This document shows positions 2,897 to 18,224 of a stretch of 39,321 nt of DNA, piece after piece. The first letter of the stretch is position 1. Each line of letters starts with the position of its first letter. Made by a program: the position numbers and the translations under genes. The DNA lies in contig CAYGBP010000008.1 of the NCBI GenBank assembly GCA_964348105.1, positions 3,663 through 42,983 on the forward strand, given 5' to 3'. Under the pieces are notes generated by a model that saw only the letters and a program-made list of their open reading frames with translations, made no database searches and was not told the origin of the DNA. Source of the DNA: an uncultured Nitrospirota bacterium (lineage in GTDB: Bacteria; Nitrospirota; Nitrospiria; DATECO01).

Positions 2897-2925
2897 TTGA
2901 TTCCTGCCGTTTGATCGGTTATAAT
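2897..2925 (+). promoter_or_regulatory. Sigma70-type promoter for the top6B-top6A operon
   Basis: TTGATT (2897-2902), a 17-nt spacer, then TATAAT (2920-2925). It lies about 80 nt upstream of the top6B ATG at 3004. Confidence 0.6.
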
Positions 2926-3003
2926 CCCCCCGTGGAGCGAGAGGTCGCTTCCTCCGTCATGTAATTCAATCATCGGGCAATTACAGGATTCCGAAAAAAC
3001 CGC

Positions 3004-5025
3004 ATGCCGAAACGATCAAACCAGGCCGTTCTTCCCAAGCCCAAGTTTGCCGAGGCCAAAGAGAGCGTATCCGCCATCGAGATGGGATCGCGGCAGCGGG
3101 AGATCTCCGTCTCGGAGTTCTTCACCAAGAACCGGCACCTGCTGGGATTCGACAGCCCCAGGAAGTCGCTGCTGACCTGCGTCAAGGAGGCGGCGGACAA
3201 CGCGCTCGACGCCTGCGAGGAAGCCGGCATCCTGCCCGAAGTGGTGGTCAAGCTGGAAGTGGTGCCGGAGGGAGGCGCCGTGCCGGCCCCCAGCCAGGCG
3301 AAGCGCTTTCGGATCACGGTGATCGATTACGGCCCCGGGATCGTCCGCCAGCAAATTCCCCCGATCTTCGCCAAACTGCTGTACGGCTCCAAGTTCCACC
3401 GGCTGAGGATGAGCCGCGGGCAGCAGGGAATCGGAATATCGGCCGCCGGCATGTACGGGCAGTTGACGACGGGAAAGCCGGTGCGGATCATCTCGCGAAC
3501 CAGCGCAAAAAAACCGGCGCACTATTTCGAAGTGCAGATCGACACGAAGAAGAACGAGCCCCGCATCCTGGAGAAAAAGGAGGTGGAATGGGAAAACCAC
3601 CGCGGGACCCAGGTCACGCTTGAGATTGAGGGGCGCTACCAGAAGGGCCGTGCCTCGGTGGAGGAGTACCTGGAGCAGACATCCATCGCCAACCCGCATG
3701 TGAAGCTGACCTATCATACGCCGGAGGGTGAGACCAAGGACTATCCCCGGACCTATCACGAGCTCCCGCCGCCCCCGCGCGAGATCAAGCCGCATCCCTA
3801 CGGGATCGAGCTGGGCATGCTGCTCAAGATGCTTCACGATACGAAGAGCCACTGGCTTTCGGGTTTACTGGCCGGGGACTTCAGCCGTATCTCAACCAAG
3901 CTGGCCGAAGAGATCTGCAAGACCGCGAAGATCCCGCCTCACACCAGGCCGCGGGATATTCACGGAGAACGGGCCGAGACGCTTTATCAGGCGCTTCAGT
4001 CCACCAAGATCATGGCGCCGCCCAGCAACTGCCTCTCGCCGATCGGCGAGAAGGCGATTCTGGCTGGATTGTACAAGCAGATCCAGGGGGATTTTTACAC
4101 GGCCGTCACGCGCCCGCCGGCGGTTTATCGCGGCAATCCTTTCGTGATCGAGGCGGGGCTGGCGTACGGCCGCGGCCCAGACGCGGCGGCCAAGTCCAGG
4201 GAAGAAAAGAAGGTCCCCCTGGCCGAAGGCGAGGATCAAAAAGGGGAACAGGAACTGGCCCGCGTGATCCGGTACGCCAACCGCGTGCCGCTGCTCTATC
4301 AGCAGGCGGCCTGCGCCACCTACAAATCGGTTCTGGAGACCACCTGGCGCAATTACGGCATTTCACAGTCCAGAGGGGCGCTTCCCGGCGGCCCCATGGT
4401 CGTCTTTATTCACATGGCATCGGTCTGGGTGCCGTTCACCAGCGAATCGAAGGAGGCGATCGCCGATTACGACGAGATTCGAAAGGAGATCAAGCTCGCC
4501 CTGCAGGAATGCGGCCGGCGCCTGGGCGTCTTCCTGCGACGGCGCGAGCGGGCCAAGAGCGAGTTTCGCCGGCGCAACATCTTCGAGCTGTATATCGAGG
4601 AAGTGGTGGAGGCCTGCAATCGCTTGAAGGGCGGCAAGCTGCCGACAAAGAAGCTCAAGGAGCAGCTTCAAAAGATCGCCGCCAAGCGCACGGGCGGCGA
4701 GCGGACGGACGAGGTCCTGGGAAAGCGCGCCACCGGCCCGGAAGGGCTTCCCCACTCCATCATCGTCACGCCCGAAGGAGCCGAAGGAGAGGTGCCATTG
4801 CCGGACGATGACGGCTTGAGGCGCGTACCCGCCGGGAAGGAGGAGCGTCAGGAACAGATGGAACTGCCCGGTTTGAAGGCGGGGCGAAAGGAGGCCAAGG
4901 CACCCACGAGAGGCAAGGGGAGAAAGGCGGACAGGAGCGGACGTCGAACAGCTCGCCAGCCCAAGAAAACTTCCCGCCCGAAGTCGGCAAAACCACGTCA
5001 GTCCGTTAGGCGAAAGACGAAATAG
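3004..5025 (+). CDS. top6B: DNA topoisomerase VI subunit B (GHKL/Bergerat ATPase) with a long basic C-terminal tail
   Basis: 673-aa ORF. It has REISVSEFFTKNRHLLGFD, the N-box KEAADNALDACEE, the G1 box VIDYGPGI and the G2 box SRGQQGIGISAAG. A transducer-like region and a Lys/Arg-rich tail follow. Confidence 0.93.
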   Translation: MPKRSNQAVLPKPKFAEAKESVSAIEMGSRQREISVSEFFTKNRHLLGFDSPRKSLLTCVKEAADNALDACEEAGILPEVVVKLEVVPEGGAVPAPSQAKRFRITVIDYGPGIVRQQIPPIFAKLLYGSKFHRLRMSRGQQGIGISAAGMYGQLTTGKPVRIISRTSAKKPAHYFEVQIDTKKNEPRILEKKEVEWENHRGTQVTLEIEGRYQKGRASVEEYLEQTSIANPHVKLTYHTPEGETKDYPRTYHELPPPPREIKPHPYGIELGMLLKMLHDTKSHWLSGLLAGDFSRISTKLAEEICKTAKIPPHTRPRDIHGERAETLYQALQSTKIMAPPSNCLSPIGEKAILAGLYKQIQGDFYTAVTRPPAVYRGNPFVIEAGLAYGRGPDAAAKSREEKKVPLAEGEDQKGEQELARVIRYANRVPLLYQQAACATYKSVLETTWRNYGISQSRGALPGGPMVVFIHMASVWVPFTSESKEAIADYDEIRKEIKLALQECGRRLGVFLRRRERAKSEFRRRNIFELYIEEVVEACNRLKGGKLPTKKLKEQLQKIAAKRTGGERTDEVLGKRATGPEGLPHSIIVTPEGAEGEVPLPDDDGLRRVPAGKEERQEQMELPGLKAGRKEAKAPTRGKGRKADRSGRRTARQPKKTSRPKSAKPRQSVRRKTK

Positions 5026-5033
5026 GGGAAGTC

Positions 5034-6140
5034 ATGGCCAAGAAAAAAGAAAAGAAACCGAGTGTGGTCGAAAGAAAGCTGGTCGGCGTGGCGGACACGG
5101 TCGTCACCGCCGCGCAGCGGCAGAAGGATCCGACGATTTCGATCCCCATCCGCTCCCTTTCGAACGTCACTTTCAGCGAGCGCAAGGGAATGATCGAAAT
5201 GGGCAATAAGAAACAGGCCCGCACATTCTTCAATGTGGGGATGGCCAAGAAATTCATGCAGACCGTGCTGGTGGCGGACGCACTTTCCGAGCTCCAGCGC
5301 GCAAACCTCACCACCTCCCTGCGTGAAATCTATTATCGCACCAAGCACACAATCAAAGACTCGCACGAGAACACCTTCGATGCCCAGACCGAGTCGGATC
5401 CGGTGATCGAGGACCTCGAGGTGTCGCTGGAGGCGCTCCGGGAAGAGCTGCATGTGCGGGCCGAGAACGGCGGCAGCGTGGTCGGGCCGCTCATCCTGGG
5501 CGATGACGGCGACCGCGTGGACTGCACCAAGTTGGGGAAGGGGGGGTACTCCGTTCCTTCGATCGTCGAGCCGGAATTTCTGGAGATCAGGAAATGCACG
5601 GCCGATTTCGTCCTGTTGGTCGAGAAGGGAACCCAGTGGAACCGCCTCTCCGAGGATAAGTTCTGGCGCCGGTACAACTGCGTGCTGCTGACCGGCAACG
5701 GCCAGCCCCCCCGTGGCGTCCGACGCCTGGCCCGCCGGCTGCATGACGAGAAACGGCTTCCGGTCTACGTCCTGGTGGATAACGACCCCTGGGGGTATTA
5801 CATCTATTCGGTGGTCAAGCAGGGATCGATCAACCTCGCCTTCGAGAGCAAGCGGATGGCGATTCCCAAGGCGAAGTTCATCGGGCTGTCCAGCGCCGAT
5901 CCCGAGCGGTACGGTCTTCCGCGCAATGTCGGGATCAAGCTCAACGAAAAGGACATCACCCGCGCGCGCGAGCTTCTCAACTATCCCTGGTTCCAGAAAA
6001 AGGACTGGCAGAAGGAAATCAAGCGAATGCTTTCCAGCGGCCTCAAATACGAGCTGGATGCCCTCGCCAACAAGGATTTCCAATACCTGACGAAGCGGTA
6101 TCTTCCCAGAAAGCTGAAGGAAAGAGATTGGCTGGATTAG
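5034..6140 (+). CDS. top6A: DNA topoisomerase VI subunit A (Spo11-type, 5Y-CAP plus Toprim)
   Basis: 368-aa ORF starting 8 nt after the top6B stop. It has LREIYYRTKH (catalytic Tyr region), the Toprim Glu in LLVEKGTQWNRL and the DxD motif in VYVLVDNDPWGYYIYS. The C-terminus YELDALANKDFQYL is typical of the family. Confidence 0.93.
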   Translation: MAKKKEKKPSVVERKLVGVADTVVTAAQRQKDPTISIPIRSLSNVTFSERKGMIEMGNKKQARTFFNVGMAKKFMQTVLVADALSELQRANLTTSLREIYYRTKHTIKDSHENTFDAQTESDPVIEDLEVSLEALREELHVRAENGGSVVGPLILGDDGDRVDCTKLGKGGYSVPSIVEPEFLEIRKCTADFVLLVEKGTQWNRLSEDKFWRRYNCVLLTGNGQPPRGVRRLARRLHDEKRLPVYVLVDNDPWGYYIYSVVKQGSINLAFESKRMAIPKAKFIGLSSADPERYGLPRNVGIKLNEKDITRARELLNYPWFQKKDWQKEIKRMLSSGLKYELDALANKDFQYLTKRYLPRKLKERDWLD

Positions 6141-6985
6141 CCGCCGGCGGTATGGAGGCCTGCCTGGGCAGGGGCGGGGTGGTTGGCAATCTTCGCAAGC
6201 ATCTCCTCCAAGGCCGATCCGCCGTCGTGGCCGGCGGCCCGCGCATGGGAAAGAGCACCTTTCTTCGGCAGATGGCCGCCGCATTGCCCCCCGAGGCGGC
6301 CGTTGTTTCATTCGACCTCTCCAAGAAAAAACCTGCCGATTTCCGCGAGCGGCTTCCGGACGGGAGCGATCCCGTGGTTGTTCTCATGGATTGCTGCGAG
6401 AGCTTACTCCCACATCCGAACCTGTTTCTGGATCGAATCATCCCGATCTTGACGGATCTGGGAAATGGGCTGCGGGGGATCGTGTGGGCGGGTTCGGTTG
6501 CCTGGGGAGAGTGGGCGATGACCCACCGGGACGTCTTCGGGGCCTCCCTGCGCTATTATCCCCTTGTCGTTCTGCCGCCCAAGGAAGCCCGTCCGGTTCT
6601 GAAAAGTCGATTGCGGGACTCCGTCACCGTGTCCGAGCTGGAAGACCTGCTTGAAAAAACGGGGGGGCATCCGCATCTCCTGGCGGAGACGGCCAAGCGC
6701 GGAAATGCCGAACTCGACGCATTCTTCGAGCAACTCTGGAAGGCGGCCGACCGAACGGAGGAGCGGGCTGTCCTGACCCGGCTGATCGAGGCGGGTCAAT
6801 GGGTCTCCCTGGAACGATTGAAGGACGATGGCGGAAAAGGTCCGCCCAAAGAAGTGCTGGATCGCCTGGCCATCCTGGGATTGATCAACCGTACGATCGT
6901 GGACGGCGCCGCAGCCGTCCGGATTGTCTCACCTGTTCTGACCGAGTGGGTCCGCCGCACCCATCGGGTACCGTCCGGAATCTGA
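6128..6985 (+). CDS. Uncharacterised P-loop NTPase (STAND/ORC-Cdc6-like core) with a C-terminal winged-helix-like domain; third gene of the top6 operon
   Basis: 285-aa ORF. A TTG start at 6128 overlaps the top6A stop (6138-6140) by 13 nt and has an AAGGAA SD-like element upstream; an alternative ATG is at 6152. Motifs: Walker A AGGPRMGKST, a Walker-B-like PVVVLMDCCE, YPLVVLPPKEARPVL and a GxP-type motif KTGGHPHLL. The C-terminal helix-rich segment (VLTRLIEAGQWVSLERL, VLDRLAILGLINR) looks wHTH-like. Confidence 0.7.
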   Translation: MAGLAAGGMEACLGRGGVVGNLRKHLLQGRSAVVAGGPRMGKSTFLRQMAAALPPEAAVVSFDLSKKKPADFRERLPDGSDPVVVLMDCCESLLPHPNLFLDRIIPILTDLGNGLRGIVWAGSVAWGEWAMTHRDVFGASLRYYPLVVLPPKEARPVLKSRLRDSVTVSELEDLLEKTGGHPHLLAETAKRGNAELDAFFEQLWKAADRTEERAVLTRLIEAGQWVSLERLKDDGGKGPPKEVLDRLAILGLINRTIVDGAAAVRIVSPVLTEWVRRTHRVPSGI

Positions 6986-7960: not shown

Positions 7961-8328
7961 CCGGGTCCTTAAAATGCCTTCAATATTCCCTTTTATATTA
8001 AAGTCTTCGGGTGGTTCTCCCTTCAAGGGTAACCAGGTATCCCGTATTTGTCAATTTCGGGAAAATCCAGGAATATGGCCGATTTCCGGATGGGTATCGG
8101 TGGCCATTCCGAATTCCCAGGCCAGTATAGCCTTGCCAGGATGCCTGCCTTGCTTCGGGGCATCGGCTATGAGATCAAACCGTTGTCGCAGCCGAATCCG
8201 GCTTCTCTTATTTCTGATGCTGTGCTATGATTCCCGGCAAGCATCCATCGAGCAAAAAGTTGAAAACTTGGAAATCCGCTTCATCGGGACCCTTATTCGC
8301 ATCCTCTTGTTTACGTTCCGGTCCTCCC

Positions 8329-8799
8329 ATGGTGCTTCTGCTTAAGAATCTATTGTTTACGGTGGTCGTGCCGGGGACGGTGGCCGTTTATGTCCCGTAT
8401 CTCATTGCGCCGGACCGGCCGCCCGAGCCGGGTCCGACCCTTGCCGTCGCGATTCTCTTTTTTCTCGCGGGCGTTACGATCTATGCCTGGTGCGTCTGGG
8501 ACTTCGCGTCATTCGGAAGAGGAACGCCGGCCCCGGTCGATGCGCCGAAGCGGCTTGTCATCCGGGGATTGTACCGCCATACGCGCAATCCGATGTATGT
8601 CGGCGTGCTGATGGTGATTCTCGGCTGGGCCATCCTGTACCACTCTGCCGTTTTGCTTTCCTACGCGCTCTTCATGGCGGTTTGCTTTCACCTGTTCATT
8701 ATCCTGTACGAAGAGCGGCATCTGAAGCGTCTATTCGGTGACCAGTATGCCGACTACTGCAGGCGGGTGGGTCGTTGGCTCCCCAGGCTTCGCCGTTAG
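8329..8799 (+). CDS. Isoprenylcysteine carboxyl / phospholipid methyltransferase family membrane protein (ICMT/PEMT-like)
   Basis: The family motif is RLVIRGLYRHTRNPMYVGVLMVILGW ... ILYEERHLKRLFGDQYADYCRRVGRWLP. I prefer the ATG at 8329 (MVLLLKNLLFTVVVPG) over the upstream track start at 8227. Confidence 0.8.
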   Translation: MVLLLKNLLFTVVVPGTVAVYVPYLIAPDRPPEPGPTLAVAILFFLAGVTIYAWCVWDFASFGRGTPAPVDAPKRLVIRGLYRHTRNPMYVGVLMVILGWAILYHSAVLLSYALFMAVCFHLFIILYEERHLKRLFGDQYADYCRRVGRWLPRLRR

Positions 8800-10017: not shown

Positions 10018-10701
10018 TTAGGACGGTTTTCTTCCCTGAAGCACCACGGTCTTCGCGCCATAGGAGGCCGCCACTTCCCGCGTCTCCGGCTCCGAGCTTT
10101 TTGAGAAATAATCCAGTTGACTGATCACCTTCACATCGACAAAGCCGGCCTTGCGGAACAGCTCCAGGTATCGGTCCTCCATCTCAGCGCCCACGATGCA
10201 TTCCGCCCAAAGTTGTGGATTTTCCCGTGAGGATTGCTTGATCGGCTTGCCCAATACGATATCCGCGATCTGAATCCGTCCGCCCGGGCGAAGGACCCGG
10301 AAGATTTCGGCGAAGGCTCGCGGCTTGTCCGGAATCAGGTTGAGTACACCGTTGCTGGTCACCACGCCCACAGACGCATCGGGCAGAGGGAACTTCTCGG
10401 CATTTCCCTCGAAGAACTCCACCTGGGTTGCCCCCATCTTCGCGGCGTTGCACCTGGCCTTGTTGAGCATGGCCTGGGTCATGTCCAGCCCAGCCACTTT
10501 TCCTTTCGGCCCCACCCGGGTGGAGGCGATGAGGACATCTGTTCCGGATCCCGAGCCGATATCATGATAGGAAAAGCCCTGCAGTTCGCAGAGCACGACG
10601 GGGATTCGGAAATCTTCCGGCAGGCTGTCTACCGCCTTTTCAAGGTCCTCGCGCAGAACCTTGTTTAGAAATTCCTTCTCAGGATTTCCCCACCAGAGCA
10701 A
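10018..10701 (-). CDS. Chimeric ORF: ECF sigma region-4 remnant fused in frame to a 5'-truncated ArsM-like SAM-dependent methyltransferase
   Basis: The N-terminal 50 aa, LEKAVDSLPEDFRIPVVLCELQGFSYHDI, form sigma70 region 4 up to the first HTH helix. The sequence then switches directly to MTase motif I, GSGSGTDVLIASTRVGPKGKVAGLDMT. It continues like arsenite methyltransferases (VEFFEGNAEKFPLPDASVGVVTSNGVLNLIPDKPRAFAEIFRVLRPGGRIQIADIV). Confidence 0.7.
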   Translation of the reverse strand: MLWWGNPEKEFLNKVLREDLEKAVDSLPEDFRIPVVLCELQGFSYHDIGSGSGTDVLIASTRVGPKGKVAGLDMTQAMLNKARCNAAKMGATQVEFFEGNAEKFPLPDASVGVVTSNGVLNLIPDKPRAFAEIFRVLRPGGRIQIADIVLGKPIKQSSRENPQLWAECIVGAEMEDRYLELFRKAGFVDVKVISQLDYFSKSSEPETREVAASYGAKTVVLQGRKPS

Positions 10702-10749
10702 AAAGGGGTCATGCAGCTGTTCAAACAGCGAAAAAGATGAGTCCGTGTC

Positions 10750-11028
10750 TCAAGAGACAGGGTCGATGGATACGGTTTGAGGCCGGACTGCCCGTTTTCG
10801 GCAGGCCGTGATGAAATGATTCGTGAGAATCCGGAAGATCCAGGGCCGGAAGCTGCCCTGATCCTTTAGGGAACCATTGTTGGCCCAGGCCTTGGCGACC
10901 GTATCCGCCACGAGATCCTCCGCGTCCGCGCGGTTCTTGGCAAGCCGGAGCGCCGCTCCATAGAGCTCATCCAGAAGGTCCATGACCCTTTCCTCGAATA
11001 ATTTGGTTCTCTTTTCCTCAGGGCTCAT
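10750..11028 (-). pseudogene. ECF (group 4) sigma-70 factor, region 2 fragment ended by an in-frame TGA
   Basis: It reads DLLDELYGAALRLAKNRADAEDLVADTVAKAWANNGSLKDQGSFRPWIFRILTNHFITACRKR, which covers sigma70 regions 2.1-2.4. The TGA at 10752-10750 is in the same frame as the downstream ORF starting at 10701. Together they look like one former gene interrupted by a nonsense codon. Confidence 0.75.
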
Positions 11029-11087: not shown

Positions 11088-11382
11088 CGAACATCGTGAG
11101 ATAATCCTGATATAGCCTCTGACGGGCTAGTCCTGGCCCGGCTGGGAGACAGGGCTATTTTAGCAGATCTCAATCGCCCGGAATACCCGGGATCGAACAG
11201 GGCCGTTTTGTGTCAAGCCATTGATAAGCATAAGAAAAAATCGGAACGGGAGTCTAATTTGACTTGATCTACCCATTTAATGTAAGAAAGATGCGTTAGG
11301 CTCTGTACAGTTATTGTTCGCAATTTCTGTCTGGTCGAGACAGGCCGGGAGGATCGGGTTTGCGGCGGGAGGGGAGCCACGA

Positions 11383-11805
11383 ATGATGTTTGACGCGGCA
11401 GTGTCGGCGCAGCAGGCGTTTGCACGGGCCCGGGACTGCAATGAACTGGGCGAAGAGATGAATGCGGCGGTCGAGGCCGAGGAGCGGTTTTCAAACGGCG
11501 TGGGTGAGGAGGCCTCGGAGGCCTACCGCGAACTGGTGGCAATCGGCGAGCGGCATCCGCAGGCTTTGGCATTTCGGGAGTTCCTGGTGTATATCACCTG
11601 GTGTCATCTGATGGATGAGACGCAGCCGGAGCATTTCAGACGGGGGCTGATCCTGTGCGATGATTTGCTTGAGCGTGACGACGGCAAGGACCCGGAGCGC
11701 CTCAGGCGGCTTCGGGAGATCCGGCGATCTTTCCGGACCGGTCTGGGCGAAGCGTCAGACGATTTGCTGGATTACGAAGCCGATACGCCCAAGGGCGGCG
11801 ACTGA
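11383..11805 (+). CDS. Hypothetical acidic cytoplasmic protein
   Basis: ATG at 11383 preceded by GGGAGGGGAG. 140 aa with coding-like composition and no recognisable motifs. Confidence 0.5.
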   Translation: MMFDAAVSAQQAFARARDCNELGEEMNAAVEAEERFSNGVGEEASEAYRELVAIGERHPQALAFREFLVYITWCHLMDETQPEHFRRGLILCDDLLERDDGKDPERLRRLREIRRSFRTGLGEASDDLLDYEADTPKGGD

Positions 11806-17162: not shown

Positions 17163-18224
17163 TTGACGTTTCATGAATTTGAGGCTAACCTTTGGGTTGT
17201 CTTCAATTCCTGGTTTTCTCCGCAGCGGGGTGTCGCCATCGGTTTCCCATCGGTCATTACGTCTCCCAAATGGGGCATTTTGACGCTCGCCCTGTTCTTT
17301 CTGCCGGGGTGCACGGACCGGGGGGATTCGGCAGCCGCGCGGGAAAACGAGGGAACCCCCCTTTCCCAGAAAATCGACATCGTTCCCTTCCTGGATTCCA
17401 AGCGGCTTTTCCTTCGCTCGGACGTTGCCCTCGTGGCTGACAGCAGGGACGGGAGCATTCTATACGAAAGGAAGGCCGATATTCGCAGGCCGATCGCCTC
17501 CCTCACGAAGCTGATGACCGCCATGGTCATCTTGGACAAGGGTCTACCGATGAATGAAATCATTGCGATCACGAAGGCCGATCGCGACCGATTGCGGGGT
17601 TCGGGGTCCAGGCTCAGCTTCGGAAGTTGGCTGACGCGCGAGGATCTCATCAGAATCACGCTGGCGGGTTCGGACAATCGTGCCGCGGCCGCCCTGGGTC
17701 GGACTTACCCGGGCGGTACGAAGGCATTCGTGGCGGCGATGAATGACACGGCTGCGCGGCTGGAGATGCAGAGATCGGTCTTCGAAGATCCCGCGGGGCT
17801 GCGTCGCGGAAACCTTTCGACCGCCAGGGACCTGTCCATTCTGGCAAGGGCAGCCTACCGCTATCCGTTGATCCGGGAGGCGACCACCGCCGGGCAGGGT
17901 CTGGTGGTCGATCAGCAAAAGGGTCGGGCCATTGAATTCATGAATACCAACCGACTGGTTCGAAGCGCGATTTGGAACATTTCCTTGGGCAAGACCGGCT
18001 ATATTTCGGAAGCCGGACATTGCCTTCTGATGCGGGCCGAGGTCGCCGGCCGTCCGCTGATCATGGTTCTGCTCAACTCGTGGGGGGAGTTGAGTAAGTT
18101 CGGGGATGCCAACCGGATCCGAAAATGGCTTGAGCAGGCCCACGATCGAGCCCTTGAAGCTGTGGCCTCTCCAGATGAAGCCGCCGATTCCATATCGGCG
18201 CAGCCATCGGCGTTGGGTGAATAG
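17163..18224 (+). CDS. D-alanyl-D-alanine endopeptidase/carboxypeptidase (peptidase S11, PbpG-like)
   Basis: It has SxxK (IASLTKLMT), SxN (GSDNRAA) and KTG (GKTGYIS). A lipobox-like FLPGC lies at about residue 49. The TTG start at 17163 is uncertain. Confidence 0.85.
   Translation: MTFHEFEANLWVVFNSWFSPQRGVAIGFPSVITSPKWGILTLALFFLPGCTDRGDSAAARENEGTPLSQKIDIVPFLDSKRLFLRSDVALVADSRDGSILYERKADIRRPIASLTKLMTAMVILDKGLPMNEIIAITKADRDRLRGSGSRLSFGSWLTREDLIRITLAGSDNRAAAALGRTYPGGTKAFVAAMNDTAARLEMQRSVFEDPAGLRRGNLSTARDLSILARAAYRYPLIREATTAGQGLVVDQQKGRAIEFMNTNRLVRSAIWNISLGKTGYISEAGHCLLMRAEVAGRPLIMVLLNSWGELSKFGDANRIRKWLEQAHDRALEAVASPDEAADSISAQPSALGE

What the first reader, a model, noticed from the sequence alone, without database searches (positions are those of the whole stretch)
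2897..6985. Bacterial Topo VI operon with a translationally coupled, uncharacterised STAND-like P-loop/winged-helix third gene
Seen:
- One promoter (TTGATT-17-TATAAT) precedes top6B.
- top6A follows top6B after an 8-nt gap.
- A 285-aa ORF then starts at TTG 6128, overlapping the top6A stop by 13 nt, or at ATG 6152, 11 nt after it.
- The 285-aa protein has Walker A GPRMGKST, a Walker-B-like VVVLMDCCE and a GxP-type motif GGHPHLL as in STAND/NB-ARC or ORC/Cdc6-like NTPases.
- Its C-terminus is wHTH-like.

Known: Topo VI is an A2B2 enzyme typical of archaea and plants and is only sporadic in bacteria. To my knowledge no dedicated NTPase partner has been described for prokaryotic Topo VI.

Inference: the tight coupling suggests a loader, regulator or specificity factor for Topo VI. 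This is the best candidate in the window for an undescribed functional module.
Basis: partly seen in the sequence, partly recalled or inferred. Interest (0 to 1): 0.75.

Follow-up and report, generated by a model that had tools for sequence, protein, structure and literature searches.

The report
Topo VI operon with hitch-hiking STAND-like ATPase
A genuine bacterial topoisomerase VI operon is followed 11 bases later by a small, uncharacterised Nitrospirota-only switch-type ATPase, but relatives of that ATPase sit behind other genes (mostly an ABC exporter), so it is not a conserved Topo VI partner.

Summary
A promoter-like site lies at 2897-2925, followed by top6B (3004-5025), top6A (5034-6140, 8-nt gap) and a third ORF. 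The third ORF starts at ATG 6152 (11 nt after the top6A stop; best supported) or at TTG 6128. Its Walker A, Walker B-like and GGHP motifs are real and conserved. An AlphaFold2 model (pLDDT 90) matches ORC/Cdc6, Avs, MalT, CED-4 and SSO1545, so it is a bare NBD-helical-winged-helix (STAND-type) module.

The family is small and, where named, entirely Nitrospirota: 37 close homologues plus a sister subfamily of about 127. In 21 distinct homologue loci, top6A is the upstream gene only in the window's own population. In 13 loci the gene follows an MsbA-like ABC exporter just as tightly. Elsewhere it follows a GH94 enzyme or a four-helix protein, or stands alone. Topo VI lies nearby in three relatives but convergent, 0.8-8 kb away. 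Conserved flanking genes indicate that the window's tandem order arose by a local inversion and loss of the ABC gene.

Verdict: an ordinary Topo VI operon plus a lineage-specific NOD-only ATPase of unknown role, probably co-transcribed here by accident of rearrangement.

The parts
2897..2925 (+). Sigma-70-like promoter candidate (TTGATT, 17 nt, TATAAT), 79 nt upstream of the top6B ATG
   Evidence: 10 of 12 consensus positions. Only 2 sites in 5 kb against 0.9 +/- 1.2 in shuffles. Function not shown.
3004..5025 (+). top6B, DNA topoisomerase VI subunit B (673 aa), with a ~100-aa C-terminal extension whose last ~55 residues are Lys/Arg-rich
   Evidence: NF003218 E 3.7e-201 (669 bits, cutoff 274). 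Pfam Topo-VIb_trans 9.9e-56 and HATPase_c. The profile ends at residue 570.
5034..6140 (+). top6A, DNA topoisomerase VI subunit A (368 aa), 8 nt after top6B
   Evidence: NF003333 E 1.6e-173 (577 bits, cutoff 465). Pfam TP6A_N, Topo_VI_alpha and TOP6A-Spo11_Toprim. 85-88% identical to Top6A of L016 and L009.
6152..6985 (+). ORF3: 277-aa NOD-only (NBD / helical domain / winged helix) STAND-class P-loop ATPase. An alternative TTG start at 6128 gives 285 aa.
   Evidence: 37 homologues at 46-58% identity. AF2 pLDDT 90.1, pTM 0.89. Foldseek hits to ORC1/Cdc6, Avs3/4, MalT, PH0952, SSO1545, CED-4 and Apaf-1.
6164..6172 (+). N-terminal L-G-R motif about 22 residues upstream of the P-loop (STAND/AAA_16-type 'hhGR' motif)
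   Evidence: conserved LGR; this Arg is invariant in the sister subfamily. AAA_16 profile positions 1-51 align to this motif plus the P-loop in P0006 (E 8e-6, below cutoff).
6233..6259 (+). Walker A, GGPRMGKST (residues 28-36)
   Evidence: G28, G29, P30, G33, K34 and T36 are at least 90% conserved.
6374..6400 (+). Walker B-like strand VVVLMDCCE (residues 75-83), with family signature D-x-C-E
   Evidence: D80 and C82 invariant, E83 at least 90%; beta strand 75-80.
6503..6514 (+). Family-specific invariant W-G-E-W motif after strand beta4
   Evidence: W118, G119, E120 and W121 invariant. No counterpart recognised in known families.
6551..6592 (+). RYYPLvvLPPKEAR segment (beta5 plus start of the helical domain; STAND-like 'L.PL..eEA' pattern)
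   Evidence: R134, Y136, P137, L138, L141 and E145 invariant; R147 at least 90%; strand 133-137, helix 143-153.
6662..6682 (+). GxP motif GGHPHLL in the helical domain
   Evidence: G172 and P174 invariant; H173 at least 90%. AAA_35 profile positions 215-243 align here in P0010 and P0006.
6800..6961 (+). C-terminal winged-helix domain (helix 233-242, hairpin 245-258, helix 261-269)
   Evidence: K233, L236, L239, A240, G243, I245, R247 and T248 invariant.
11314..11805 (+). Synteny marker: 163-aa protein with no Pfam family. In relatives it is the divergent neighbour of the ABC exporter gene that precedes ORF3.
   Evidence: tblastx 63-73% identity to L001 5687-6106, L004, L005, L009, L011, L016, L022 and L023; no Pfam hit.

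Best explanation
The locus is a standard top6B-top6A operon followed by a gene for a small, lineage-specific STAND-class nucleotide switch.

ORF3 consists only of the nucleotide-binding domain, the helical GxP domain and the winged-helix domain. It has no sensor or effector domains.

By inference from its class, ATP binding at Walker A/B would open the closed NBD-HD-WHD module and allow self-association. Output would have to go through a partner protein or through DNA contacted by the winged helix.

In this genome ORF3 is most likely transcribed from the top6 promoter. It is probably translated by re-initiation 11 nt after the top6A stop.

That arrangement appears to be a lineage-specific result of a local inversion and gene loss. 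The ancestral region probably had top6BA convergent with an 'ABC exporter -> ORF3' pair. ORF3 is therefore not a conserved Topo VI subunit or loader.

Shown here: the gene order, motifs, fold class, family distribution and neighbourhoods.

Inferred: co-transcription, ATP switching and the rearrangement history.
For: Identity of top6B and top6A.

Fold and class of ORF3:
- AF2 pLDDT 90.1.
- Foldseek top hits are ORC1/Cdc6 (6.8e-9), Avs4/Avs3, MalT, PH0952 STAND, SSO1545 (TMq 0.54), CED-4 (TMq 0.56), Apaf-1 and RPP1.
- Weak, sub-threshold Pfam hits across members to AAA_35, AAA_16, NACHT, nSTAND3 and nSTAND5.
- Conserved GR, Walker A, D-x-C-E and GGHP motifs.

Narrow family:
- 37 proteins in 5.8e9 clusters.
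- 29 representatives among 1.84e9.
- A sister subfamily of 127 proteins.
- Every protein in either group that carries an organism name is Nitrospiria, Nitrospira, Nitrospirales or Nitrospirota; most carry no name.

Neighbourhoods:
- ABC exporter -> ORF3 in 13 distinct loci: L001, L004, L005, L006, L009, L011, L014, L016, L017, L022, L023, L024, L027.
- Other upstream genes or none in L008, L010, L013, L018, L020, L028, L029.
- Sister-subfamily loci L034 and L035 have neither top6 nor the ABC gene beside ORF3.
- top6A -> ORF3 occurs only in the window and L019, which is the same population.

Rearrangement:
- The window keeps top6BA on one side. On the other it keeps the 'small' protein (11314-11805) and the S11 peptidase (17163-18224), as in L016.
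- ORF3 is inverted relative to L016, and the ABC and RecB-like genes are absent.

Other points: no promoter-like or terminator-like site between top6A and ORF3, and no GC break at the junction.
Against: - Topo VI is within 0.8-8 kb of ORF3 in three other loci (L016, L009, L001). The two genes have therefore been neighbours for some time.
- Many contexts contain DNA-metabolism genes: Pif1, a RecB-like nuclease, RmuC, ExoIII/PolX, SRAP, and gyrBA/DciA/Mfd in L035.
- The fold also resembles ORC/Cdc6 and RuvB, whose winged helices bind DNA. A DNA-related role, and a real functional benefit of the operon fusion here, cannot be excluded.
- The NJ tree places the ABC-linked genes mostly in one clade, so ABC linkage may not be ancestral to the whole family.
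- Only 21 of roughly 37 homologue clusters could be placed in context.
- No expression, ATPase or interaction data exist.
Confidence: 0.7

Rival explanations
1. One reading: ORF3 is a dedicated ATP-dependent accessory factor (loader, regulator or specificity factor) of bacterial Topo VI, and the operon fusion reflects that function.
For: - An 11-nt gap or 13-nt overlap with top6A, and no intervening promoter or terminator.
- ORC/Cdc6-like fold with a winged helix.
- Topo VI lies within 0.8-8 kb in L016, L009 and L001.
- Both Topo VI and the ORF3 family occur in Nitrospirota (PMC11302465).
Against: - Adjacency to top6A is unique to the window's population among 21 loci. Elsewhere top6A is convergent, separated by other genes, or absent within 8-10 kb (L004, L006, L008, L010, L020, L034, L035).
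- Equally tight coupling is seen to an ABC exporter, a GH94 enzyme and a four-helix-bundle protein.
- ORF3 is only about 50% identical between genomes whose Top6A is 85-88% identical. That is not what a tightly co-evolving partner would show.
- All named family members are Nitrospirota, while Topo VI is far more widespread.
Confidence: 0.08
2. ORF3 works with the MsbA-like ABC exporter that precedes it in most relatives, for example as a nucleotide-dependent regulator of its expression or activity. The window's copy has lost that partner or has it elsewhere in the genome.
For: - 13 of 21 loci have ABC_membrane+ABC_tran -> ORF3 on the same strand with gaps of 1 to about 110 nt.
- The linkage spans an ABC divergence down to 69% identity (L014).
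- The ABC-linked ORF3 clade has a distinct acidic pI of 5.5-6.7, against 8.8-10.1 in the others.
Against: - The ABC-linked genes form essentially one clade plus L014 in the NJ tree, so this may be inherited synteny.
- Basal and sister lineages lack the ABC gene (L018, L028, L029, L034, L035).
- No ABC homologue lies in the 39-kb window.
- The exporter reaches no NCBIfam subfamily cutoff, so its substrate is unknown.
- I know of no precedent for a NOD-only ATPase partnering an ABC exporter.
Confidence: 0.15
3. ORF3 is a minimal anti-phage STAND or MADS-type (mad8-like) defence ATPase.
For: - The PADLOC mad8 profile matches 26 of 37 members (best E 1.4e-5; window E 6.4e-4).
- Foldseek hits to Avs3 and Avs4.
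Against: - The mad8 match covers only the N-terminal P-loop region (residues 17-168 against profile positions 23-128 of 314).
- There is no sensor or effector domain.
- None of the gene products scanned in the window or carrying precomputed Pfam hits in the homologue loci is a methyltransferase/nuclease pairing or a recognised defence component. Those products were not scanned against PADLOC.
- The gene appears vertically inherited, sitting in conserved chromosomal synteny within one phylum, which is unlike a mobile defence island.
Confidence: 0.04

Closest known systems
STAND NTPase NOD modules (Apaf-1/CED-4/NB-ARC, MalT, Avs3/Avs4, PH0952)
   Same: - Three-domain NBD / helical (GxP) / winged-helix architecture.
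- N-terminal GR motif before the P-loop, and an 'L.PL..eEA' segment followed by GGHP.
- Foldseek probability 1.0, with TMq 0.45-0.56.
   Different: - Only 277 aa, with no sensor (TPR, WD40, LRR) or effector domain.
- Walker B is D-x-C-E instead of DD/DE.
- An invariant WGEW motif is family-specific.
- No STAND Pfam model reaches its gathering score.
Stand-alone archaeal AAA+/STAND-like ATPases of Pfam ATPase_2 (PF01637), e.g. Sulfolobus SSO1545 (PDB 2fna)
   Same: - A NOD-only protein of similar size with the same domain order.
- One of the best global superpositions (TMq 0.54, rmsd 6.9).
- Also of unknown function.
   Different: - Sequence similarity is negligible: PF01637 is hit by only 2 of 37 members, at E 0.021.
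- Different phylum-level distribution (Nitrospirota against mostly Archaea).
ORC1/Cdc6 replication initiators (AAA+ initiator clade plus winged helix)
   Same: - Best Foldseek E-values (8s0e_A 6.8e-9; 1fnn, 2qby, 2v1u).
- ATPase plus a C-terminal winged helix.
   Different: - Poor global superposition (TMq 0.33-0.47, rmsd 11-18).
- The model shows only one short helix between beta2 and beta3, so there is no initiator-specific motif.
- The GGHP (GxP) motif stands where ORC/Cdc6 carry the sensor-2 'GDAR' arginine. That comparison is from my own knowledge.
Eukaryotic Topo VI accessory proteins RHL1 and BIN4
   Same: They are the only known dedicated Topo VI accessory factors.
   Different: RHL1 and BIN4 are DNA-binding proteins rather than P-loop ATPases. 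They are restricted to eukaryotes and co-occur strictly with Topo VI there (PMC11302465). ORF3 shows no such strict co-occurrence at the locus level.

Membership tests
DNA topoisomerase VI (top6B/top6A) | Subunit B (GHKL ATPase plus transducer) and subunit A (5Y-CAP/WHD plus Toprim) scoring above curated equivalog cutoffs and encoded together | tested here: met
   NF003218 669 bits against 274; NF003333 577 bits against 465. Pfam Topo-VIb_trans, HATPase_c, TP6A_N and TOP6A-Spo11_Toprim. The genes are 8 nt apart.
STAND-class NTPase | P-loop NBD followed by a helical domain with a GxP motif and then a winged-helix domain | tested here: met
   AF2 model, Foldseek hits to Avs3/4, MalT, PH0952, Apaf-1, CED-4 and RPP1, and invariant G172/P174.
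STAND-class NTPase | Conserved 'hhGR' motif in the helix preceding the P-loop strand (feature recalled from Leipe, Koonin & Aravind 2004) | tested here: met
   LGR at residues 5-7 is conserved in A1, and the Arg is invariant in A2. The start of the AAA_16 profile aligns there. The trailing acidic residue of the canonical motif is not conserved.
STAND-class NTPase | Walker B with two adjacent acidic residues (hhhhDD/DE) | tested here: inconclusive
   The family has hhhhD-x-C-E (D80, C82, E83). The sister subfamily has D-N-C-D. The second acidic residue is displaced by two positions.
STAND-class NTPase | Additional sensor or effector domains ('numerous domains') | tested here: not met
   The NBD-HD-WHD module fills all 277 aa. 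No extra Pfam domain was found.
STAND-class NTPase | Score above the gathering threshold of a curated STAND Pfam family (NACHT, NB-ARC, AAA_16, nSTAND1-6, ATPase_2) | tested here: not met
   best E-values 8e-6 to 1e-4, all bit scores below cutoffs.
ORC/Cdc6 initiator-clade AAA+ | Initiator-specific helical insertion between beta2 and beta3, and a sensor-2 arginine in the lid | tested here: not met
   a single 7-residue helix (61-67) lies between strands 50-55 and 75-80. The lid carries GGHP, not a sensor-2 Arg. This is based on a model, not a solved structure.
   1 of 21 distinct loci (the window's own) has top6A upstream. Three have top6 convergent at 0.8-8 kb. The others have none within the available 3-10 kb.
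   No multimer prediction or experiment was available.
MADS defence system component mad8 | Significant full-length match to the mad8 profile, plus the other mad genes in the operon | tested here: not met
   E 6.4e-4 (window) to 1.4e-5 (best member), N-terminal third of the profile only. The neighbours are Topo VI, an ABC exporter and similar genes.

The most novel reading that the evidence does not exclude
The ORF3 family could be a DNA-associated, ORC/RuvB-like ATP switch so far seen only in Nitrospirota, acting on chromosome topology or repair together with Topo VI. In that case the long-standing proximity to top6BA, Pif1 and a RecB-like nuclease would reflect function. So would the placement near gyrBA/DciA/Mfd in a Nitrospira relative, and the window's operon fusion would make the link explicit. 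This would be the first NTPase accessory factor of a prokaryotic Topo VI.
Probability: 0.08. Interest if true: 0.65.

Novelty: new member of a known kind. Interest (0 to 1): 0.25.

Why it matters
The ORF3 result removes an attractive but unsupported lead: prokaryotic Topo VI still has no known dedicated NTPase partner.

What remains is a well-defined, confidently modelled family of NOD-only STAND-class ATPases. It has no annotation, and all named members are Nitrospirota, a phylum that includes the main nitrite oxidisers and comammox bacteria.

Such bare NOD proteins are useful for asking what the STAND switch does without sensor or effector domains. The family's variable 'passenger' position behind unrelated genes also shows that tight gene spacing in a single genome is weak evidence for a functional module.

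Tried and rejected
1. Pfam, NCBIfam and PADLOC scans of ORF3 and of all 37 members gave only sub-threshold P-loop/STAND hits, so no family assignment was possible.
2. A profile search of PDB sequences with A1 gave only generic Walker A matches (AFG2, Rho, RuvB; E of about 1e-3 or weaker) and was uninformative.
3. I tested whether the upstream ABC exporter is the cyclic-glucan exporter NdvA/ChvA. The idea came from L008, where a GH94 glucan-synthase-like gene precedes ORF3. I rejected it as unproven: the glucan ABC models score 393 and 306 bits against cutoffs of 733 and 585, and are not the best hits.
4. The defence (mad8) reading was rejected. The match is partial and no mad partners are present.
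5. I checked for horizontal insertion of ORF3 at the top6A end. There is no GC break, and flanking synteny argues for a local inversion instead.
6. I checked for an assembly chimera at the junction. This was rejected because L019 carries the same junction.
7. TTG 6128 as the true start is less likely, because it lies within conserved Top6A codons and homologues align on the ATG. However, TTG 6128 is preceded by a better Shine-Dalgarno-like GAAGGAAAG than the ATG is.
8. The genome and metagenome collection scans returned few loci (4 and 15).

Full report
**1. Observation**

- TTGATT (2897-2902), a 17-nt spacer and TATAAT (2920-2925) lie 79 nt upstream of a 673-aa ORF at 3004-5025.
- A 368-aa ORF follows at 5034-6140 after 8 nt.
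- A third ORF runs to 6985 from either TTG 6128 (13-nt overlap) or ATG 6152 (11 nt after the TAG at 6138-6140).
- The first two proteins are Topo VI subunits B and A. Both score above the curated NCBIfam equivalog cutoffs: NF003218 669 bits against 274, and NF003333 577 bits against 465. Both carry the expected Pfam domains.
- The promoter match is 10 of 12 positions. Two such sites in 5 kb is not far above the shuffle expectation of 0.9 +/- 1.2, so it remains a candidate only.
- No promoter-like or terminator-like site separates top6A from the third ORF, and GC content is continuous across the junction.
- A second, near-identical assembly (L019, 99.5-99.9% nucleotide identity) carries the same junction, so it is not a chimera.

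**2. What ORF3 is**

ORF3 has no Pfam or NCBIfam family above threshold, only weak P-loop hits.

It is nonetheless a real, conserved protein.
- 37 homologues at 46-58% identity share a set of invariant or nearly invariant motifs:
  - an N-terminal L-G-R motif;
  - the Walker A motif GGPxMGKT(T/S);
  - a Walker B-like hhhhD-x-C-E;
  - an invariant W-G-E-W motif;
  - RYYPL..LPPKEAR;
  - GGHP(Y/H)LL;
  - a conserved C-terminal block, K..LDRLA.LG.I.RT.
- Their N-termini align on M-x-x-x-LGR. This favours ATG 6152, giving 277 aa.
- TTG 6128 lies within the conserved Top6A C-terminal codons D-W-L-D.

An AlphaFold2 model built on this alignment is confident (pLDDT 90.1, pTM 0.89).
- It shows a five-stranded P-loop domain, a helical domain carrying GGHP, and a helix / beta-hairpin / helix winged-helix domain.
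- Foldseek against the PDB returns ORC1/Cdc6 (best E 6.8e-9), Avs4 and Avs3, MalT, the PH0952 STAND protein, the stand-alone archaeal ATPase SSO1545 (TMq 0.54), CED-4 (TMq 0.56), Apaf-1, RPP1 and RuvB.
- Across family members, sub-threshold Pfam hits go to AAA_35, AAA_16, NACHT, nSTAND3 and nSTAND5.
- The AAA_16 profile aligns from its first position to the GR motif plus P-loop. AAA_35 aligns to the GGHP segment.

The model has only one short helix between beta2 and beta3, so there is no initiator-specific insertion. The lid carries GxP rather than a sensor-2 arginine. I therefore class ORF3 as a STAND-type NOD with nothing attached, closest in organisation to NOD-only proteins such as SSO1545. 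It is not an ORC/Cdc6 initiator.

**3. Distribution**

The family is very small.
- 37 clusters among 5.8 billion.
- 29 representatives at E <= 1e-3 among 1.84 billion.
- A sister subfamily of about 127 proteins of 300-310 aa, at 25-32% identity to ORF3 with the same motif pattern.

Every protein that carries an organism name is from Nitrospiria, Nitrospira, Nitrospiraceae, Nitrospirales or Nitrospirota.

**4. Neighbourhood test**

I could read the upstream neighbour in 21 distinct loci of the ORF3 subfamily.
- In 13 loci, ORF3 follows an approximately 590-aa ABC_membrane+ABC_tran exporter on the same strand, 1 to about 110 nt downstream. In L001 and L006 the gap is a single base. The loci are L001, L004, L005, L006, L009, L011, L014, L016, L017, L022, L023, L024 and L027.
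- In L008 it follows a GH94 glucan-synthase-like gene.
- In L029 it follows a four-helix-bundle protein.
- In L010 it follows a glyoxalase, at 240 nt.
- In L013, L018, L020 and L028 it stands alone, next to divergent genes: a toxin-antitoxin pair (L018), USP/TrkA (L020) and RmuC (L028). The divergent neighbour in L013 was not identified.
- top6A is the upstream gene only in the window, and in L019, which is the same population.

Two loci of the sister subfamily show neither top6 nor the ABC gene beside the ORF3 relative.
- L034 lies between a META-domain gene and an SNase gene.
- In L035 the gene lies about 6 kb downstream of gyrA (with DciA, SmpB and other genes between), just upstream of an EngB-like GTPase gene and 1.6 kb from Mfd.

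Tight coupling to whatever lies upstream is thus a general habit of this gene. It carries no Topo VI-specific information.

**5. Why it sits next to top6A here**

Topo VI is not far away in some relatives.
- In L016, ORF3 (+) and top6A (-) are convergent, 0.8 kb apart, with top6B and a Pif1 helicase behind.
- In L009, bPH and Pif1 genes lie between ORF3 and top6A (2.8 kb).
- In L001, top6A is 8 kb away.

The window retains the flanks of this region.
- top6BA lie on one side.
- On the other side lies the 163-aa protein that in relatives is the divergent neighbour of the ABC gene (window 11314-11805; 63-73% identity).
- Further along lies an S11 peptidase (17163-18224).

Read in the same direction:
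- L016 is top6B+ top6A+ | ORF3- ABC- | small+ RecB-like+ S11+.
- The window is top6B+ top6A+ | ORF3+ | 4.3 kb of other genes | small+ ... S11+.

The simplest history is a local inversion of ORF3, loss of the ABC and RecB-like genes, and gain of unrelated genes. Those genes include an ECF sigma factor remnant fused to a methyltransferase, which is itself a scar of rearrangement.

The genomes are fairly closely related: Top6A is 85-88% identical, and the ABC exporters of L001 and related loci are about 80-91% identical to one another. Retained proximity is therefore expected from ancestry alone. ORF3 itself is only about 50% identical between these genomes. That rate of change would be unusual for an obligate partner of so conserved an enzyme.

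**6. Mechanism**

Shown here:
- a Topo VI operon;
- a NOD-only STAND-class ATPase gene 11 nt downstream;
- intact nucleotide-binding motifs;
- a winged helix with invariant K233, R238 and R247.

Inferred:
- ORF3 is transcribed from the top6 promoter and translated by re-initiation. No good Shine-Dalgarno sequence precedes ATG 6152.
- Like other STAND and AAA+ switches, it cycles between a closed nucleotide-bound monomer and an ATP-bound oligomer.
- Because it lacks sensor and effector domains, its output must go through a partner protein or through DNA bound by the winged helix.

I cannot name the partner. The ABC exporter is the best-supported candidate by neighbourhood (confidence about 0.15). 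That linkage is largely confined to one clade plus L014 in a neighbour-joining tree, and the exporter reaches no subfamily cutoff. A Topo VI-specific role retains perhaps 0.08. The weak PADLOC mad8 similarity covers only the P-loop region, and no other MADS genes are nearby.

**7. Comparison with what is known, and novelty**

Topo VI in Nitrospiraceae is already documented. [quoted passage not shown]

ORF3 is a new, unannotated member of a known kind, the STAND-class NOD. It is unusual in being bare and in its D-x-C-E and WGEW signatures. The Topo VI linkage is a single-lineage rearrangement.

Interest is therefore low to moderate. It is a clean negative for the proposed module, plus a tidy, uncharacterised family seen so far only in Nitrospirota.

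Noticed in passing
L016:12919-13902 (-), L009:8433-9764 (-), L001:15203-16537 (-), L031:1004-1450 (-): A Pif1-family helicase gene lies directly beside top6BA in relatives. In L016 it is upstream of top6B, and in L009 and L001 it is downstream of top6A on the same strand. None is found in the 39-kb window. Pif1 is a more recurrent Topo VI neighbour in these Nitrospiria than ORF3, and in L009 and L001 it occupies the slot that ORF3 holds in the window.
   Followed up: partly
window 4714-5022 (+): Top6B has a C-terminal extension of about 100 aa beyond the end of the NCBIfam profile (residue 570). Its last ~55 residues are very rich in Lys and Arg (…GRKEAKAPTRGKGRKADRSGRRTARQPKKTSRPKSAKPRQSVRRKTK), which suggests a DNA-binding tail. 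The L016 orthologue aligns only to residue 597.
   Followed up: no
window 10018-11028 (-): An ECF sigma factor appears broken. One ORF (10750-11028) holds Sigma70_r2. The next (10018-10701) begins with a truncated Sigma70_r4_2 (profile positions 2-32 of 54), fused directly to a SAM methyltransferase domain. This is a probable deletion or fusion scar in the stretch that replaces the ABC and RecB-like genes of relatives.
   Followed up: partly
window 11314-11805 (+): A conserved 163-aa protein with no Pfam family. In at least eight relatives its orthologue is transcribed divergently from the ABC exporter -> ORF3 pair. Here it is 4.3 kb from ORF3 and on the same strand.
   Followed up: partly
ORF3 orthologues in L001-L029: There is a sharp split in predicted isoelectric point. 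ORF3 proteins encoded after the ABC exporter are mostly acidic (pI 5.5-6.7; L009, L016 and L014 are exceptions). Those in other contexts, including the window's (9.0), are basic (8.8-10.1).
   Followed up: no
L035:1-12500: In a Nitrospira-type genome the sister-subfamily gene lies about 6 kb downstream of gyrB-gyrA, with DciA and SmpB among the genes between. It is followed 78 nt later by an EngB-like GTPase gene, with Mfd nearby. This is a second topoisomerase-proximal context, though possibly a coincidence.
   Followed up: no
L001:3221-4699 (-) and equivalents in L004, L005, L009, L011, L016: A TM0106-family RecB-like nuclease (TIGR03491, E 2.9e-77) is conserved two genes upstream of ORF3 in the ABC-linked loci. 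In L001 it lies next to a PDDEXK plus Zn_ribbon_Top1 protein. It is absent from the window.
   Followed up: no
L019:2842-3040 vs window 8621-8633: The otherwise near-identical metagenome contig carries about 200 bp more than the window at this point, inside or next to the PEMT-like methyltransferase gene (8227-8799). This indicates a strain-level indel.
   Followed up: no
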